A stretch of DNA of 10,679 nucleotides from a virus (taxonomy: Duplodnaviria; Heunggongvirae; Uroviricota; Caudoviricetes). This document shows positions 797-9,184 of this stretch, one piece after another (the stretch's first letter is position 1; every line of letters starts with the position of its first letter). The notes under the pieces are model-generated. The model saw only the letters and a list, made by a program, of their open reading frames with translations. It was not told where the DNA came from and searched no databases. Position numbers and translations under genes: made by a program. The stretch lies in the IMG/VR virus record IMGVR_UViG_2648501186_000016. The stretch is one strand, 5' to 3'.

Positions 797-1624
797 TCAG
801 GCGGCTGCACCCGCCGGTTTCTCATACTTACTGATAGTGATCTCGACCTTCCCTTTCGGGATAACCGGTCCCCACTCCACCAGCATTCTTTTCACCTGTC
901 TGTCGTCTTCCCACACACCCGCGTGGGTCAGGGCGTCAAACAGCGCCTTGTTATAGTTGTCCAGATCGCGGATCCGGTTACCCATCGCAGATACCCAGCC
1001 CGCATAGCGTTTCACACCTTCCAGCATGGTTTCGGGGTTTACCCCCTCATTCAAACGGGCTTTCCAGGCTTTGAAGGCTGCAGATTTTGAATTGCCACCA
1101 GCACGTTTGGGATATGCCAGCCATGCCTGCTCAAACTCCGGAGAGTATTCCGGTCGGTTTGAACGAACTCGCACAGACTCATCAGCAGATGCACCAACAG
1201 CTATTGGTTCATTGACTGGTTCTTTGACTGGTTCAAAAGAGTGACTGGTTCTGGGTGAATCTCCTGCATTACCCCCTGGTGCAACTCCTGCACTACCTGG
1301 TGAATTTGCTGCACCAGATAGTGAATTATTTGCACTACCCCCTAGTGAATCTCCTGCACCATCCAGATGAAGGAGATAGATATTACTTGAGTTACCTTTT
1401 TCACCTTTCCGGGTGACTTTTTTTACCAGCCCGGACTCACAAAGGGCCGCAATATGATTCATCACAGAACGTTTGCTAATCTCGCACTGGTCAGCAATAT
1501 GCTGGTAGCTGGGCCAGCACTCACCCTGATCGCTGGCATTATCAGCCAGCTTGATCAGAACCAGTTTTCGCAATGGATTACCCACTCGAATTTTCATCGC
1601 TTTAACCATCAGCGCCATACTCAT
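797..1624 (-). CDS. Phage replication initiator-like protein (N-terminal winged-helix DNA-binding domain, low-complexity linker, C-terminal domain), lambda O-like architecture
   Basis: 275-aa ORF, ATG at 1624 with GGAGG 6 nt upstream and ATGA overlap with the preceding ORF. N-terminus LRKLVLIKLADNASDQGECWPSYQHIADQCEISKRSVMNHIAALCESGLVKK looks like a wHTH replication-protein domain; the middle is a Gly/Ser/Ala/Pro-rich linker. Product assignment is by pattern recall, not search. Confidence 0.65.
   Translation of the reverse strand: MSMALMVKAMKIRVGNPLRKLVLIKLADNASDQGECWPSYQHIADQCEISKRSVMNHIAALCESGLVKKVTRKGEKGNSSNIYLLHLDGAGDSLGGSANNSLSGAANSPGSAGVAPGGNAGDSPRTSHSFEPVKEPVNEPIAVGASADESVRVRSNRPEYSPEFEQAWLAYPKRAGGNSKSAAFKAWKARLNEGVNPETMLEGVKRYAGWVSAMGNRIRDLDNYNKALFDALTHAGVWEDDRQVKRMLVEWGPVIPKGKVEITISKYEKPAGAAA
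1203..1349. repeat. Iteron-like direct repeats inside the linker-coding part of the O-like gene (candidate ori)
   Basis: TGACTGGTTC at 1213-1222, 1225-1234 and 1242-1251; GTGAATCTCCTGCA at 1255-1268 and 1335-1348; related GTGAAT...TGCAC units at about 1299-1314 and 1320-1335, giving a roughly 21-23 bp period. Confidence 0.5.
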
Positions 1625-1845
1625 GCTGCACCTCCGAGATGCTTCATGTTTTTTCCGGAGCGAAAGGTTATAAGCGGCATACTGACGCGGTAATTACGGC
1701 CCAGCGGTTCACAAATCACCTTCTGACATTCACGGTCCACCAGGCTAACACGTAGAACATGTCCTGCAGGTGTGGTGTACCACTGACCCGGACGAGGACA
1801 ACGGAAAGTCTGATTGGTAAACCGTTTGAAAATATTCCGGATCAT
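1621..1845 (-). CDS. Hypothetical small protein (74 aa), translationally coupled within the replication operon
   Basis: ATG at 1845 overlaps the upstream stop (ATGA) and is preceded by AAGGGGG; its stop overlaps the O-like start (ATGA at 1621-1624). No recognisable domain. Confidence 0.5.
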   Translation of the reverse strand: MIRNIFKRFTNQTFRCPRPGQWYTTPAGHVLRVSLVDRECQKVICEPLGRNYRVSMPLITFRSGKNMKHLGGAA

Positions 1846-2993
1846 TTGCGCCCCCTTACCTCTGAAGGGTTCAGCGACAAATTTATGAGGCAGGCCAGTG
1901 CCGAAGCATCATTAATATAGTCATACAAGCTAACAGCCAGCGGAGATTCGGCTTTTGCCAACATAGGATAAAGCTGCTGCAGCCAGACCTGATGAATTGA
2001 TGAAATGTAGGAACAGAGAACGCTGGCGTTATGTGCAACGTCGCTCGGTACAGCGGGCTTTGAAAGCTGTTTCTCCATCTGGTTAAAGGCATTGATGTAT
2101 GCCTCTTTGAACTGGGCAGCACGTTTACCCGTGAAACCCATAGCAAGAAACGCAAAGCCGTCGCGGGTTATTTGATAGCAAGGTAGTTTGCGGCCTGTGC
2201 AATCGGTGTAATCACTCACCGAAAAATTGCGGGCAGTGAATGATGCGGAACATTCAAGCGTGCGGATCTTTTTCAGTACATCGTCATGACGTTTGGAGAA
2301 GAAGTTGGCAACAGCCAGGGATGAAGTAACAGCCTGACCATCAACGATGGCAATTTCAGGTTGAGTGAGGGTTGGGATCGTAGCCATGATGGCAGCCTCT
2401 TTGGTGATTTTTAATAACTCACCACCAAGGCTTTCCACGACCTTATTGGTGGTGAGACGTACAGGGGTGGAAATACCGGTCACCAAAGAACCCGGCCCAA
2501 CCGAAGTTGGCCCTGCACGCCCCACCATAATTTGGGCGTAATGCTGCTCATGACACAAAAAAACCGCAAGAGCGCGGTTGTGCGCTTTGGTGAATTCCGG
2601 GTTTCCACGCCCGGCACCCGCTTTATAAGGTGCCTGAACAGTGTAACGTCCCGGAATGGCAGAATCAATGTGCTGGTGGTCCTTCACACTCAACAAAATC
2701 ACGCCTGAATTTCCACAAAGGACTAAAGCATTCATGCGGGTAGTCTTTGCGAAGATAGATAACGCGCTGTGTTTCTGGCTCCCAACGAATAACATGAACA
2801 TAAAGTCCTCTTCCGTCACGAAACCAGCGGTTAAGTTCCTGCACAACTCGCCCCCCACAGTCAGGTAAAGTTCTCTGTGGTTACTAACAGCCAGGTGATT
2901 TGGTAATCTGCATTCATGCCGTAACAACAGGTGTGCAGCGACACTGACCACCAGCTGTTGCGACAAACGGTTATTTGCCGTTAAACTGTTCAT
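1842..2993 (-). CDS. Rha-family phage regulatory protein with about 200-aa N-terminal extension of unknown function (alternative start at 2387 would give a 181-aa Rha-only protein)
   Basis: 383-aa ORF, ATG at 2993 overlapping the upstream TGA (ATGA). Residues about 215-300 (IVDGQAVTSSLAVANFFSKRHDDVLKKIRTL...ITRDGFAFLAMGFTGKRAAQFKEAYINAFNQMEKQL) match the Phage_pRha pattern. Internal ATG at 2387..2385 has AAAGAGG 8 nt upstream. Confidence 0.55.
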   Translation of the reverse strand: MNSLTANNRLSQQLVVSVAAHLLLRHECRLPNHLAVSNHRELYLTVGGELCRNLTAGFVTEEDFMFMLFVGSQKHSALSIFAKTTRMNALVLCGNSGVILLSVKDHQHIDSAIPGRYTVQAPYKAGAGRGNPEFTKAHNRALAVFLCHEQHYAQIMVGRAGPTSVGPGSLVTGISTPVRLTTNKVVESLGGELLKITKEAAIMATIPTLTQPEIAIVDGQAVTSSLAVANFFSKRHDDVLKKIRTLECSASFTARNFSVSDYTDCTGRKLPCYQITRDGFAFLAMGFTGKRAAQFKEAYINAFNQMEKQLSKPAVPSDVAHNASVLCSYISSIHQVWLQQLYPMLAKAESPLAVSLYDYINDASALACLINLSLNPSEVRGRK

Positions 2994-3541
2994 GCGTTAG
3001 TTTCTCCACAGACACAAAACGCCACGACGCCCGGAGCTGCACACTCGCGGGCGTCACTCTTTTCTGGAGCGCAGAAAATTTTGTAGACCAGTGCCGCATG
3101 CTCCTGGAGCTTCGAAATTGACAGATACAATTCATCATTAATTGCTGTCTGCTCGTGTGGCTCCACTACCCCATCTTCGATTGCCGAACGAATCTGCTTT
3201 GAGTAACTCCCGATCTGTTCGATGACTTCCAGCAGGCGCTGGTTTATATCTGCGTTCTCTACTTCCTCAATTTCAGGAAGCGATACAAACACCCCACCAG
3301 CAGACTGTGCGACAGCATCCGCAATGTAGTGAGTGCCAGCAGCACGCTGTAAAATCATTGCCCATCCCAGCGGGAAAATCTGATCGCCATCTGCACGAAG
3401 GCGGTTGAATAAAGCGTTCTCTGTAACATCCAGCCACTCAGCAGCTTCAGCGTAACCCCCCGGCAACGCCGCGATAGTTTTTCTGACAGCTTTCACGTAC
3501 CACTCAGGCTGTTTTTCCACTTTCCAGTGATGATTACCCAC
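2990..3541 (-). CDS. YdaT-like / CII-analogue regulatory protein (putative)
   Basis: 183-aa ORF directly downstream of the Cro-like gene, overlapping its end by 8 nt. Start is GTG at 3541..3539 with AGGAGG 6 nt upstream. Position and size fit the ydaS-ydaT type pair of Rac-like prophages; family assignment is from memory. Confidence 0.55.
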   Translation of the reverse strand: MGNHHWKVEKQPEWYVKAVRKTIAALPGGYAEAAEWLDVTENALFNRLRADGDQIFPLGWAMILQRAAGTHYIADAVAQSAGGVFVSLPEIEEVENADINQRLLEVIEQIGSYSKQIRSAIEDGVVEPHEQTAINDELYLSISKLQEHAALVYKIFCAPEKSDARECAAPGVVAFCVCGETNA

Positions 3542-3794
3542 GGCTTACCTCCTGTTCCTGTGGTTTAAACCCATTCTGGTTTTGGCTAGATTGAAAACGT
3601 GCCGGATAAAGAATCTGCATTTCGCTGATTTCACCCTTAAAAAAATTGGCCAGACGTTCTGCAAGATCGATAGATGGAATTTGTTCCAGTCTTTCAATAC
3701 GACTCAGCGTCGCTGGATTGACCTGAACGCCAGCAGCAACATGCTGCAAAGTAAATCCGTGCGCCTTACGCACATTCCGTAATGGTGATTGCAT
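3534..3794 (-). CDS. Cro-like XRE-family HTH regulator
   Basis: 86-aa ORF divergent from the repressor gene; HTH segment FTLQHVAAGVQVNPATLSRIERLE; ATG at 3794 with GGAGG just upstream. Confidence 0.7.
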   Translation of the reverse strand: MQSPLRNVRKAHGFTLQHVAAGVQVNPATLSRIERLEQIPSIDLAERLANFFKGEISEMQILYPARFQSSQNQNGFKPQEQEVSRG

Positions 3795-8164: not shown

Positions 8165-9184
8165 ATGACTTCTGAAAGCAACAGAATTGGGAAGATGGGT
8201 GTAAACTACATAGAAGGTGTATTGACAAGATGGGGATGGGGATATCAATCAATTTCGCAAGAAAATGATGATGGGTTTGATGGCTTAATATATATAAGAT
8301 CTAAACGATTTGAGGCGAAAGATAAAGAAAACCGGAGTAAACAATCTTGGGAGTTCACTGGTGGGTTGATTCATGTACAAGTAAAAAGTGGAGATACATA
8401 CATTAGTAGTCGTAATAAAGATGAAATAAGGATCAAAATAAAAAACCTCAATGAAAAGAAGAAAATATGGTCTAGATCGTCTATTCCATGCATACTTGTA
8501 TTTGTTTTTTGGGATCATAATGAAGTTGAGTATTCCTACTGGGCTGATCTTAAATCTGAATTAACTTATTGTGATAACAGTAGTACGCTAATAAAAATCC
8601 CCTTAAAAAATAGATTTATGAGATCCCAAGAGTGTAAGGGGCCTTTAAGACGACTTGCAAGGGTATCGGCCAACTATGCAGATAAGCCGCTGATAGATTT
8701 ATCAAAATTTGACTCATTAAGTGGTAAGCTACCTACAAGTCTAAACAGTAACCTAAATTGTTCTTTGAAAAAGAAAGGTATTGAATTCTATCAGAAATGG
8801 CGATTAATTGGGGCTACAAACCCTTATTTTGGTCCTGTTCTAATAAACAGAACTGGTTGGAGTCATATAACTCGACGAAATCGCCCAATAGCAAGAATTG
8901 AAGCAAGCTTTAATTTGTTACCTTTAGCAGCAAGAATTATAAATGATGTATCTACATGGCGAATGTTAACACCCGTACGACGGTATGATAATAGAAAGGA
9001 TGGTTATGTTTGCTTTATAGATTTCGTTGGGTTAACAGCCAAAGTGAATTTAAAGAATCGCAACTCATCAGAAGTTATGGTTGTGTTAAAAAGGGAGAGG
9101 AGGTATAAACAGGGTGAAGACTGTTCCTCTGCGAAAACAAGATTATGGTTTTACACTGTTTATGAACCTGGAAGAGGAAAATAA
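8165..9184 (+). CDS. Cargo protein with N-terminal Mrr/DUF4365-like PD-(D/E)xK nuclease-fold domain and uncharacterised C-terminal domain; candidate anti-phage defense or Abi effector
   Basis: 339-aa ORF, ATG at 8165 with AGAGGG 6 nt upstream. N-terminus IGKMGVNYIEGVLTRWGWGYQSISQENDDGFDGLIYI...GGLIHVQVKSGDTYI...IPCILVFVFWDHNEVEYSYWADL fits the DUF4365/Mrr pattern (G-rich start, GW, D-x-GxDG, QxK, hydrophobic strand plus YW). Gene is about 32% GC in two hand-counted 60-bp samples versus about 50% in flanks. Confidence 0.75.
   Translation: MTSESNRIGKMGVNYIEGVLTRWGWGYQSISQENDDGFDGLIYIRSKRFEAKDKENRSKQSWEFTGGLIHVQVKSGDTYISSRNKDEIRIKIKNLNEKKKIWSRSSIPCILVFVFWDHNEVEYSYWADLKSELTYCDNSSTLIKIPLKNRFMRSQECKGPLRRLARVSANYADKPLIDLSKFDSLSGKLPTSLNSNLNCSLKKKGIEFYQKWRLIGATNPYFGPVLINRTGWSHITRRNRPIARIEASFNLLPLAARIINDVSTWRMLTPVRRYDNRKDGYVCFIDFVGLTAKVNLKNRNSSEVMVVLKRERRYKQGEDCSSAKTRLWFYTVYEPGRGK

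What the first reader, a model, noticed from the sequence alone, without database searches (positions are those of the whole stretch)
1203..1349. Iteron-like repeat array embedded in the linker of the O-like initiator gene (candidate ori)
TGACTGGTTC occurs three times within 40 bp and GTGAATCTCCTGCA twice, with related units at about 21-23 bp spacing. All lie in the Gly/Ser/Pro-rich interdomain linker (protein shows EPVKEPVNEP and SLGGSANNSLSGAANSPGSAG). In phage lambda the origin iterons sit inside the O gene between its two domains, so this arrangement suggests the prophage origin lies here.
Basis: partly seen in the sequence, partly recalled or inferred. Interest (0 to 1): 0.6.

Follow-up and report, generated by a model that had tools for sequence, protein, structure and literature searches.

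The report
Replication origin inside a phage initiator gene
The repeats are real and look like the protein-binding sites of a prophage replication origin buried inside the phage's own (here truncated) initiator gene, next to a 37-base DNA element that is frozen letter-for-letter in related prophages of many bacterial genera.

Summary
On the minus strand, gene 797-1624 encodes a winged-helix (Pfam HTH_36) phage replication initiator. Its linker-coding part holds five 15-bp sites (GTGCA-N5-TTCAC, window 1255-1359), spaced 24/21/21/24 bp. Three copies of GAACCAGTCA follow (1213-1251).

Comparison with about 200 homologous genes shows DNA-level function, not a protein repeat. Every lineage has 3-8 such dyad-symmetric sites of its own sequence. 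Perfect dyads number 48 against 6 expected under synonymous recoding. Arm sequences track the predicted recognition helix. Copy number changes by whole units.

The GAACCAGTCA copies belong to a separate 37-nt element (1218-1254). It is conserved at synonymous sites (91% codon identity against 37% in the N-terminal domain). It occurs in hosts whose copy of this gene has third-codon-position GC (GC3) from 0.30 to 0.75.

The gene sits where lambda O sits, upstream of lambda-P, DnaC-like or DnaB-like genes in relatives. The best reading is a lambda-style origin (iterons plus a conserved core), in an initiator family with no sequence similarity to lambda O in its N-terminal domain.

In this window a deletion fused the initiator to rusA after residue 216, so the origin is probably a relic that could fire only in trans. 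No binding or origin activity has been tested. I found no description of this origin in the searchable literature.

The parts
797..1624 (-). Initiator gene, 275 codons. It encodes an N-terminal winged-helix domain, a repeat-bearing linker and a partial C-terminal domain, then a RusA-derived tail fused in frame after residue 216.
   Evidence: ORF list. Pfam HTH_36 E=1.8e-11 at residues 17-67 and RusA E=1.8e-10 at residues 214-264. Alignment with the intact mEp460 and ST64B proteins diverges after ...SAMGN. NCBI annotates it as a pseudogene plus a rusA fragment in strain ETEC4073.
1361..1624 (-). Coding region of the N-terminal winged-helix DNA-binding domain (residues 1-88). The predicted recognition helix is residues 51-64 (about 1433-1474).
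   Evidence: AlphaFold2 model: helices 3-11, 17-29, 40-47, 51-64 and a wing at 67-85; residues 91-123 are disordered. Foldseek finds winged-helix proteins, including DnaD-N 2v79 and RepA_N initiators 4pql/5kbj. The helix residues 50-58 co-vary with the repeat arms.
1345..1359 (-). Iteron 1, first in gene orientation: GTGCAGGAGATTCAC.
1321..1335 (-). Iteron 2: GTGCAAATAATTCAC.
1300..1314 (-). Iteron 3: GTGCAGCAAATTCAC.
1279..1293 (-). Iteron 4: GTGCAGGAGTTGCAC, a perfect 5-N5-5 dyad.
1255..1269 (-). Iteron 5: ATGCAGGAGATTCAC. The first arm base is mutated G to A. Among 115 arrays of this type, the change is found only in this window and its identical genome record.
1272..1276 (.). G5/C5 tract in the 9-bp spacer before the last iteron. 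A second tract lies at 1338-1342 in the other 24-bp spacer.
   Evidence: An S4-5 tract followed by T (GGGGGT or CCCCCT; four of the representatives have only four consecutive G or C, e.g. GCCCCT, ACCCCT, CGGGGT) sits at the same distance from the constant element in 15 of 15 lineage representatives. It encodes Gly-Gly in some and Pro-Pro in others.
1218..1254 (-). Family-wide constant element, directly abutting iteron 5: CCAGAACCAGTCAC TCTTTT GAACCAGTCA AA GAACC. It encodes (P)RTSHSFEPVKEP.
   Evidence: Codon identity at identical residues is 91% (132/145) here against 37% (263/704) in the N-terminal domain, among lineages less than 80% identical. Per-nucleotide conservation. Present in 120 viral and 92 genomic loci, from genes with GC3 0.30 to 0.75.
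1213..1251 (-). Three direct copies of GAACCAGTCA (1242-1251, 1225-1234, 1213-1222), at start-to-start spacing 17 and 12 bp. The first two are family-wide. The third, and a fourth in PhiR63_1, is specific to this subtype.
973..980 (.). Deletion junction joining the initiator gene (after codon 216) to the 3' part of rusA. About 2.3 kb of the intact phage is missing: the end of the initiator gene, the yfdN/PerC-like gene, dam, a lexA-like gene and the 5' part of rusA.
   Evidence: Megablast hits split at query positions 278-281, which is window 977-980. Gene map of intact mEp460. Protein alignment.

Best explanation
Window 1213-1359 is the replication origin of an SfV/ST64B/mEp460-type lambdoid prophage (the 'Eru6' type in the Stx-phage literature), embedded in its initiator gene.

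Inferred mechanism:
1. Dimers of the initiator's N-terminal winged-helix domain bind the five 15-bp dyad-symmetric iterons (GTGCA-N5-TTCAC). The sites are phased about two helical turns apart, so they would build a lambda O-some-like nucleoprotein complex.
2. The adjoining 37-nt constant element carries two or three GAACCAGTCA direct repeats and a T-rich core. It would be the origin core where the complex acts, either by strand opening and helicase entry or as a second, invariant recognition site.
3. The C-terminal domain, which differs between family members, recruits the helicase machinery.

Shown here: the repeats exist; they are under DNA-level constraint; they co-vary with the recognition helix; and the gene occupies the initiator slot of replication modules.

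Inferred only: binding, unwinding, origin firing and the role of the constant element.

In this window the initiator lost its C-terminal end to a deletion and is fused to RusA. This origin copy is therefore most likely a relic that could fire only if a related phage supplied an intact initiator of the same specificity.
For: (1) The repeats are real and non-random.

(2) In 29 linker lineages with unrelated peptide repeats (AGDSLGGS, GGAGAAR, PPMPPDGT, SDKMSPP, VTESH and others), the DNA always carries 5-N5-5 dyads at a 21-24 bp period. There are 48 distinct perfect dyads against 6.0 +/- 2.4 expected under synonymous recoding that keeps the protein (z about 18; 0 of 2000 recodings reach the observed total).

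(3) Arm changes are compensatory, and each arm class goes with one recognition-helix motif without exception in 43 helix/arm combinations:
- GTGCA/TGCAC with S[KRE]RSV[MQI]NHI
- GGGCA/TGCCC with [SG]RSTVKxHI
- TGCCA/TGGCA with SK[ST]AVRxHI
- GTGAC/GTCAC with RT[AF]MR
These residues open the predicted recognition helix 51-64.

(4) Copy number varies by whole units. This subtype has 5, 6, 7 or 8 units, and the F403 group has 1 to 7.

(5) Among 115 arrays of the window's type, variable positions concentrate in the spacers (10 of 30) rather than the arms (6 of 50) or site centres (1 of 25).

(6) The constant element is frozen at synonymous sites, at 91% against 37% codon identity. This holds even in Pseudomonas genes with GC3 of 0.75 and in Ca. 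Phlomobacter genes with GC3 of 0.30. mEp013 carries AACCAGTCA in a different reading frame. The G5/C5 tract is conserved in position while it encodes Gly-Gly or Pro-Pro.

(7) The iterons sit after the DNA-binding domain, as in lambda O, where the annotated iterons lie at codons 117-145.

(8) Module context. Downstream genes in relatives are lambda P (E=1.8e-58), DnaC/IstB-like loaders or a DnaB helicase. One lineage joins this N-terminal module to a lambda-O-type C-terminal domain (34% identity, E=3e-23). PHROGs families are 'replication initiation protein / O-like'.
Against: - There are no experimental data for binding or origin activity in any member. Two papers state that replication of these phage types is unstudied (PMC12315714; PMC8951638).
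- There is no strongly AT-rich unwinding tract. The 30-bp maximum after the repeats is 60% AT here, against 77% in lambda.
- Lineages are phylogenetically related, so the helix/arm association and the dyad statistics are not fully independent observations.
- The constant element was always found in one frame in one gene family. A combined peptide plus nucleotide constraint therefore cannot be separated by context, and its role is conjecture.
- The window's own initiator is truncated and one iteron arm is mutated.
Confidence: 0.75

Rival explanations
1. The repeats are only a low-complexity, flexible Gly/Ser/Pro linker that grew by replication slippage. On this view the DNA repeats are a by-product of recent duplication and have no DNA-level function.
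For: The region is predicted to be disordered (pLDDT below 50 for residues 91-123). Peptide repeats are visible, and unit number varies as slippage would produce.
Against: - Synonymous recoding that keeps the peptide repeats destroys the dyads: 48 observed against 6 expected.
- Conservation is out of codon phase. The T of codon 1 and the C of codon 6 are kept while the residues vary.
- Unrelated peptide repeats in other lineages share the same DNA geometry.
- The G5/C5 tract is conserved across a Gly-Gly to Pro-Pro change.
- The arms co-vary with the recognition helix.
Confidence: 0.05
2. The sites are bound by the winged-helix domain but serve regulation rather than initiation. They could be an intragenic operator or roadblock for autoregulation of the early right operon, with the true origin lying elsewhere.
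For: Iteron-binding initiators of plasmids commonly autoregulate. Nothing here shows strand opening. No strongly AT-rich tract adjoins the sites.
Against: - Five phased sites plus a conserved adjoining core in the middle of the initiator gene match the architecture of the origins of lambda, P22, SPP1 oriL and RepA_N plasmids (established knowledge; lambda checked).
- No promoter-like site lies nearby.
- No other cluster of sites exists in the window.
- The arrangement persists whatever helicase system follows.
Confidence: 0.1
3. The constant 37-nt element is conserved for a reason other than origin function. It could be a mosaic joint kept alike by frequent recombination between N-terminal and C-terminal modules, or an mRNA or translation signal such as a pause or recoding site.
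For: - Sequence divergence between close relatives starts immediately after the element, so it is a module boundary.
- C-terminal domains of many kinds follow it.
- It contains the rare AGA codon.
Against: - Both flanks are saturated at synonymous sites while the element is not, so it is an island and not the edge of a recently transferred block.
- There is no canonical slippery heptamer (my reading of the sequence).
- The RNA fold of the region is no better than shuffles (z = -0.09), and no Rfam family matches.
- mEp013 keeps AACCAGTCA in another frame.
Confidence: 0.1

Closest known systems
Phage lambda ori and O protein (also P22 gene 18, phi80, 933W-type Stx phages)
   Same: - The origin lies inside the initiator gene, just after the N-terminal DNA-binding domain.
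- It has 4-6 repeats of 15-19 bp with internal dyad symmetry, spaced 20-24 bp apart (lambda checked).
- The N-terminal domain plus iterons form a specificity module joined to a C-terminal helicase-recruitment domain.
- One family member even carries a lambda-O-type C-terminal domain, and another is followed by a lambda P homolog.
   Different: - The N-terminal domain is Pfam HTH_36, not Phage_rep_O, with no detectable similarity to lambda O.
- There is no 77%-AT tract. Instead a 37-nt sequence-specific constant element is shared across genera.
- The window's subtype has no helicase loader or helicase gene next to it (PMC12315714).
RepA_N-family plasmid initiators of Gram-positive bacteria (pSK41, pTZ2162) and the SPP1 G38P/oriL arrangement
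   Same: A winged-helix N-terminal domain binds iterons located centrally within its own coding sequence, and a host- or partner-specific C-terminal domain follows. That description is established knowledge. RepA_N structures 4pql, 4pt7 and 5kbj appear among the fold matches.
   Different: There is no sequence relationship. The hosts and replicon types differ. Fold similarity is at the generic winged-helix level only (E about 1e-2, TM 0.4-0.5).
Iteron-containing theta plasmid origins (RK2, pPS10, F, R6K), with repeated elements in the unwinding region bound by Rep as single-stranded DNA
   Same: A phased iteron array is bound by a winged-helix initiator, next to a region with short direct repeats. 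That part is from general knowledge of these plasmids. This is only the analogy I propose for the GAACCAGTCA repeats.
   Different: The origin here is intragenic. No DnaA boxes are visible (my reading). The role of the direct repeats is untested.
'Eru5/Eru6' replication regions of Stx phages, and 'O-only' lambdoid phages (LLS, ST64B group)
   Same: These are the same genes. Stx2a_WGPS2 (Eru6) matches the window at 98.6%, and Stx2a_F403 (Eru5) is a family member. The window has the same Rha-plus-HTH_36 gene order.
   Different: Those papers classify the proteins and state that nothing is known about replication of these phages. In the passages retrieved, 'iteron' has no occurrence in PMC12315714, and 'origin of replication' and 'repeats' have none in PMC8951638.

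Membership tests
Lambda-type intragenic origin (iterons inside the initiator gene) | Three or more direct repeats of about 15-20 bp, phased about two helical turns apart | tested here: met
   There are five units with start-to-start spacing 24, 21, 21, 24 bp. Lambda has spacing 20, 24, 23 bp.
Lambda-type intragenic origin (iterons inside the initiator gene) | Each repeat has internal dyad symmetry, giving a binding site for a dimer | tested here: met
   The site is GTGCA-N5-TKCAC. One unit has a perfect 5/5 dyad, three have 4/5 and the mutated fifth has 3/5. Family-wide excess over the recoding null is z about 18.
Lambda-type intragenic origin (iterons inside the initiator gene) | Repeats lie between the coding regions of the N-terminal DNA-binding domain and the C-terminal domain | tested here: met
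   The repeats cover codons 89-124, and the winged-helix domain ends at about residue 88. In lambda the iterons lie at codons 117-145.
Lambda-type intragenic origin (iterons inside the initiator gene) | An adjacent strongly AT-rich unwinding tract of about 40 bp | tested here: not met
   The maximum in 30-bp windows after the repeats is 60% AT here, against 77% in lambda. Some relatives reach 70-73%.
Lambda-type intragenic origin (iterons inside the initiator gene) | The initiator N-terminal domain binds the repeats, and the fragment supports initiator-dependent replication | not testable with these tools
   There is indirect support only: the recognition helix co-varies with the arms and the gene sits in replication-module context.
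Lambda O protein family (Pfam Phage_rep_O, PF04492) | Sequence membership of the N-terminal origin-binding domain | tested here: not met
   Pfam gives HTH_36 and a sub-threshold DnaD_N hit, with no Phage_rep_O at E <= 0.01. BLASTP against lambda O finds nothing meaningful.
HTH_36 phage replication initiators (PHROGs 270, 8540, 391 'replication initiation protein / O-like') | An HTH_36 winged-helix domain at the N-terminus, with a match to the PHROG profiles | tested here: met
   HTH_36 scores E=1.8e-11, 44 bits against a cutoff of 25. The intact homolog matches phrog_270 at 1.7e-88 and phrog_8540 at 7.8e-62. At least 2046 protein clusters are related.
HTH_36 phage replication initiators (PHROGs 270, 8540, 391 'replication initiation protein / O-like') | A complete protein with an intact C-terminal domain | tested here: not met
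   The protein is truncated after residue 216 of 272 and fused to the last ~60 residues (59 by the gene length, 275 - 216) of RusA. NCBI annotates it as a pseudogene.
Known structured RNA (Rfam) | A match to any Rfam family, or unusual folding energy, in 1195-1375 | tested here: not met
   There is no Rfam hit in the region, and the fold z-score is -0.09.

The most novel reading that the evidence does not exclude
The 37-nt constant element (CCAGAACCAGTCACTCTTTTGAACCAGTCAnnGAACC) would be a previously unrecognised, sequence-specific origin core. The G5/C5 tract and the fixed 24-bp last spacing would belong to it. The core would be shared by thousands of prophages across Gammaproteobacteria.

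On this reading it is recognised by the near-invariant first 45 residues of the initiator or by a conserved host factor, possibly in single-stranded form. That recognition would be independent of which iteron specificity and which helicase-recruitment domain the initiator carries. The result would be a universal 'socket' that lets origin-specificity modules and helicase-recruitment modules be exchanged.
Probability: 0.35. Interest if true: 0.7.

Novelty: new variant of a known kind. Interest (0 to 1): 0.55.

Why it matters
Phages with this initiator include serotype-converting Shigella phages (SfV), Salmonella ST64B, cdt and Stx2 converting phages ('Eru5/Eru6') and cryptic prophages in over 40% of complete E. 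coli genomes. Two recent papers say their replication is not understood.

Placing the origin at defined sites makes the question directly testable, in three ways:
- It gives a readable helix-to-iteron specificity code.
- It gives a candidate invariant core element.
- It predicts which co-resident prophages can cross-activate or titrate each other's origins, which bears on toxin-phage induction and on escape replication of defective prophages.

The general principle, an origin inside the initiator gene, is classical. This is therefore an extension rather than a new kind of system.

Tried and rejected
- Known RNA element: no Rfam family matches in the region, and the RNA folding energy equals that of shuffles.
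- Internal promoter: none is found in 1000-1700. By eye I found no DnaA box (TTATCCACA) or IHF consensus in the constant element.
- Programmed frameshift at TCT TTT GAA: there is no canonical slippery heptamer. The -1 frame TGA follows trivially from xxT GAA and is absent in the TTA GAA variants (my reading).
- Solved-structure relatives by sequence: none. Fold search gives only generic winged-helix matches.
- The first related-loci scan returned only near-identical copies. It served for microvariation but not for diversity. A consensus-led query fixed this.
- The SfV and ST64B genome papers (PMC134923, PMC219385) are not held. I cannot exclude that they mention repeats in orf39/sb42. Searches for the motif strings found only unrelated primer sequences.
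- K-12 CPS-53 yfdO proved to be the remnant of a different subfamily, with other repeats and a lambda-O-like C-terminus. It holds no copy of these iterons.
Full report
**What is in the window.**

The window is an E. coli prophage of the SfV/ST64B/mEp460 type, 100% identical to a stretch of the strain ETEC4073 chromosome. Its early right operon runs on the minus strand, in this order:
- cro-like gene, 3534-3794
- CII/YmfL-like gene, 2990-3541
- Rha/Ash gene, 1842-2993
- a 74-codon ORF, 1621-1845
- the gene of interest, 797-1624

The gene of interest encodes an N-terminal HTH_36 domain (E=1.8e-11). Unexpectedly, it ends in the last part of RusA (E=1.8e-10). Alignment with the intact 272-residue proteins of mEp460 and ST64B shows identity up to ...SAMGN (residue 216), after which the RusA tail begins. 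Megablast hits split at window 977-980.

Compared with intact mEp460, a deletion removed about 2.3 kb: the end of the initiator gene, the yfdN/PerC-like gene, dam, a lexA-like gene and the 5' part of rusA. Fourteen complete E. coli genomes match more than 80% of the 1.2-kb query that spans this junction, and so appear to share the deletion. The intact gene type is found in a large share of the 2321 genomes with a match.

**The observation.**

TGACTGGTTC occurs three times, at 1213, 1225 and 1242, and GTGAATCTCCTGCA occurs twice.

The array is in fact five units. On the gene strand they read GTGCAGGAGATTCAC, GTGCAAATAATTCAC, GTGCAGCAAATTCAC, GTGCAGGAGTTGCAC and ATGCAGGAGATTCAC. These lie at 1345-1359, 1321-1335, 1300-1314, 1279-1293 and 1255-1269, with spacing 24/21/21/24 bp. 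The degenerate pattern gives 8 matches in the window against 1.66 expected, and five of them form this cluster.

**Protein repeat or DNA element?**

I collected homologous genes in three ways:
- By protein, from annotated phages (loci).
- By protein pattern, from IMG/VR viral contigs.
- By the DNA of the GAACCAGTCA region, from viral contigs and from one genome per species.

All share one layout:
- a winged-helix domain of about 88 residues;
- a repetitive linker that differs from lineage to lineage;
- the peptide (P/T)RTSHSFEPVxEP;
- one of many unrelated C-terminal domains.

The linker peptides are unrelated across lineages: AGDSLGGS, GGAGAAR, GIAGDGI, PPMPPDGT, PVPPKSTA, SDKMSPP, VTESH, GVVSQSH. 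Yet the DNA always contains 3-8 sites of 5-nt arm, 5-nt centre, 5-nt complementary arm, at a 21-24 bp period.

The null model redraws every codon synonymously from the family's own codon usage, which keeps the peptide repeats. The 29 lineages hold 48 distinct perfect dyads against 6.0 +/- 2.4 expected, and 112 distinct dyads of at least 4/5 against 67.6 +/- 7.4.

Within the window's units, conservation is out of codon phase. The pattern is xGT GCA xxx xxT TCA Cxx. Ser is always TCA and Ala always GCA, while the flanking residues vary.

**Covariation with the protein.**

Arm classes differ by changes mirrored in both arms: GTGCA/TGCAC, GTGAA/TTCAC, GGGCA/TGCCC, TGCCA/TGGCA, GTGAC/GTCAC. Each class goes with one motif at residues 50-58:
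- S[KRE]RSV[MQI]NHI
- [SG]RSTVKxHI
- DRSTVR[KR]HI
- SK[ST]AVRxHI
- [KE]RT[AF]MR

There are no exceptions among 43 helix/arm combinations.

An AlphaFold2 model (N-terminal domain pLDDT about 70-85) places these residues at the start of helix 51-64. That is the recognition helix of a winged helix, with a wing at 67-85, and the linker is disordered. Fold matches are winged-helix DNA binders, including DnaD-N and RepA_N plasmid initiators.

The classes largely follow clades, so this is not a set of independent events. One case is informative, though. D67 is 68% identical to the window's domain, while D96a is a far more divergent homolog. Both share RT.MR and GTGAC-N5-GTCAC.

**Microvariation.**

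Among 119 arrays of the window's type, the modal form has five units, and variants with six, seven and eight units differ by whole units. The F403 group ranges from one to seven.

Point differences among the 115 five-unit arrays fall mostly in the spacers: 10 of 30 positions, against 6 of 50 in the arms and 1 of 25 in the site centres. The window's G-to-A change in the first arm base of unit 5 is private to this defective prophage. That fits relaxed constraint, but it is a single case.

**The constant element.**

The three TGACTGGTTC copies are not part of the variable array. They lie in a block that directly abuts the last iteron: CCAGAACCAGTCAC TCTTTT GAACCAGTCA nn GAACC (window 1254 to 1218).

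In the protein-selected sample, six lineages are less than 80% identical in the N-terminal domain. Among them:
- Identical residues in the N-terminal domain use the same codon in only 37% of comparisons (263/704), so synonymous sites there are saturated.
- In the twelve codons of this block the figure is 91% (132/145).
- AGA, ACC, CAC, TCT and GAA are invariant.

The block stands out as an island in a per-nucleotide profile of 15 lineages.

The DNA pattern occurs in 92 loci of the one-genome-per-species collection. The hosts include Enterobacterales, Pseudomonas, Haemophilus, Shewanella, Photobacterium and others. It is always in this gene and frame, in genes whose GC3 ranges from 0.30 to 0.75.

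Two further signs point to DNA rather than peptide:
- mEp013 lacks the peptide but carries AACCAGTCA, then AACCAGTAA, in another frame.
- The spacer before the last iteron is GGGGGT or CCCCCT in most of 15 lineage representatives, or a four-base version such as GCCCCT, ACCCCT or CGGGGT in the rest. It sits at a fixed distance and encodes Gly-Gly in some and Pro-Pro in others.

The last spacing is 24 bp in essentially every lineage. So the geometry is fixed: iteron, G/C tract, iteron, constant block.

**Is the gene an initiator?**

PHROGs profiles call the family 'replication initiation protein / O-like'. The gene immediately downstream differs between relatives:

| Phage or locus | Downstream gene |
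|---|---|
| Klebsiella phage ST15-VIM1phi2.1 | lambda P homolog (E=1.8e-58) |
| Aeromonas AsXd-1 | DnaC/IstB-like loader |
| IMG/VR locus L022 | DnaC/IstB-like loader |
| Vibrio phiV039C | DnaB helicase (Pfam) |
| Pectobacterium ZF40 | DnaB-like helicase as annotated in its record |
| The window's subtype | PerC-like protein only |

The L022 lineage joins the same N-terminal module to a C-terminal domain homologous to that of lambda O (34% identity over 145 residues, E=3e-23). This is a natural domain swap. It places the HTH_36, iteron and constant-block module in the role of lambda O's origin-binding half.

The window-type protein itself has no detectable similarity to lambda O. 'O-like' is therefore functional analogy, not family membership.

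**Comparison with lambda.**

In lambda the four annotated iterons, each an inverted repeat, lie at O codons 117-145 with spacing 20/24/23 bp. A tract reaching 77% AT follows them. Here the position, number, size, dyad symmetry and phasing all match. The AT-rich tract does not: it reaches only 60% in this subtype, although some relatives reach 70-73%. The sequence-specific constant block takes its place.

**Mechanism, and what is shown versus inferred.**

Shown:
- The elements exist, and their geometry is fixed.
- They are under DNA-level constraint.
- They co-vary with the recognition helix.
- The gene sits in the context of a replication module.

Inferred by analogy with lambda O, RepA_N plasmids and SPP1 G38P (established knowledge):
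- Initiator dimers bind the iterons.
- A higher-order complex forms.
- Strands open, or helicase enters, at or next to the constant block.
- The C-terminal domain recruits the helicase.

One conjecture goes further. The constant block might be recognised by the near-invariant first 45 residues of the initiator or by a host factor, possibly as single-stranded DNA as in RK2-type unwinding elements.

For this window, the initiator lacks the end of its C-terminal domain. The origin is therefore probably inactive unless an intact initiator of the same specificity is supplied in trans. The retained N-terminal domain could in principle compete for such origins.

**Rivals.**

- A pure linker or slippage origin is contradicted by the recoding test, the out-of-phase conservation and the Gly-Gly/Pro-Pro tract.
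- An operator or roadblock role for the bound sites cannot be excluded without experiments. It does not explain the conserved core, or the constancy of the architecture across different helicase systems.
- The constant block could be a recombination joint. Divergence between close relatives does begin right after it. But it is an island between saturated flanks.
- It could be an mRNA signal. There is no Rfam match, no fold signal and no slippery site.

**Literature.**

Full-text searches found no description of iterons or an origin in this family. Genome Research 2025 (PMC12315714) reports that 34 of 314 lambdoid phages encode only an O homolog without a helicase or loader. It says none has been studied and their replication 'is not yet understood'. 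BMC Genomics 2022 (PMC8951638) classifies these HTH_36 proteins as Eru5/Eru6 and states there is no knowledge about replication of Eru phages. The original SfV and ST64B genome papers are not in the library, so an early passing mention of repeats cannot be excluded.

**Verdict.**

The principle is classical, so I rate it a new variant of a known kind. The unexpected part is the nucleotide-frozen constant element with fixed geometry. Interest is 0.55.

Noticed in passing
window 797-980: A deletion fuses the initiator gene in frame to the last ~60 codons (59 by the gene length) of rusA. Similar fusions exist in the protein database: HTH_36+RusA (P0056) and HTH_36+Q antiterminator (P0011). Deletions that start inside this gene therefore recur in defective prophages.
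   Followed up: partly
window 2445-2532 (-) and 2557-2633 (-): Rfam finds a C4 antisense RNA (83.6 bits) and an isrK Hfq-binding RNA (67 bits). Both lie inside the 5' third of the 383-codon 'Rha/Ash' ORF (1842-2993). The real protein probably starts further downstream, and the locus resembles a P1/P7-type c4-ant (IsrK/antirepressor) immunity module.
   Followed up: no
window 8165-9184 (+): A DUF4365 protein has a weak match to a restriction-endonuclease-like defence domain (PADLOC Aga_REase, E=9e-9). It sits in a 33-37% GC island between yfdR and the integrase gene and may be a defence moron.
   Followed up: partly
L012 (phage mEp013), initiator gene codons about 125-135: mEp013 lacks the RTSHSFEPV peptide but carries AACCAGTCA and AACCAGTAA 14 bp apart, in a different reading frame, directly after its GTGTC-N5-GTCAC repeats.
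   Followed up: partly
L389 (E. coli K-12 CPS-53, yfdO region, record 2472878-2473600): K-12 yfdO is the remnant of a different initiator subtype. It has its own repeat region (SDPSKSDASKSDPSKFDASKS) followed by a lambda-O-like C-terminal domain, and it holds no copy of the window's iterons.
   Followed up: partly
L001 3335-3823 (mEp460); deleted from the window: In intact phages of this subtype the gene after the initiator is a YfdN/PerC-like 'transcriptional activator', not a helicase loader. How these phages load a helicase is unknown.
   Followed up: partly
window 1621-1845 (-): A 74-codon ORF overlaps the start of the initiator gene and the end of the Rha gene by 4 bp each. It belongs to a PHROG of unknown function (phrog_1153) and travels with the initiator in the SfV/ST64B group.
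   Followed up: no
L005 and L013 (Vibrio phages D67 and D96a): The two phages have nearly identical initiator C-terminal halves but very divergent N-terminal domains. Both use GTGAC/GTGAT-N5-GTCAC repeats. D96a has no constant element of the usual sequence.
   Followed up: partly
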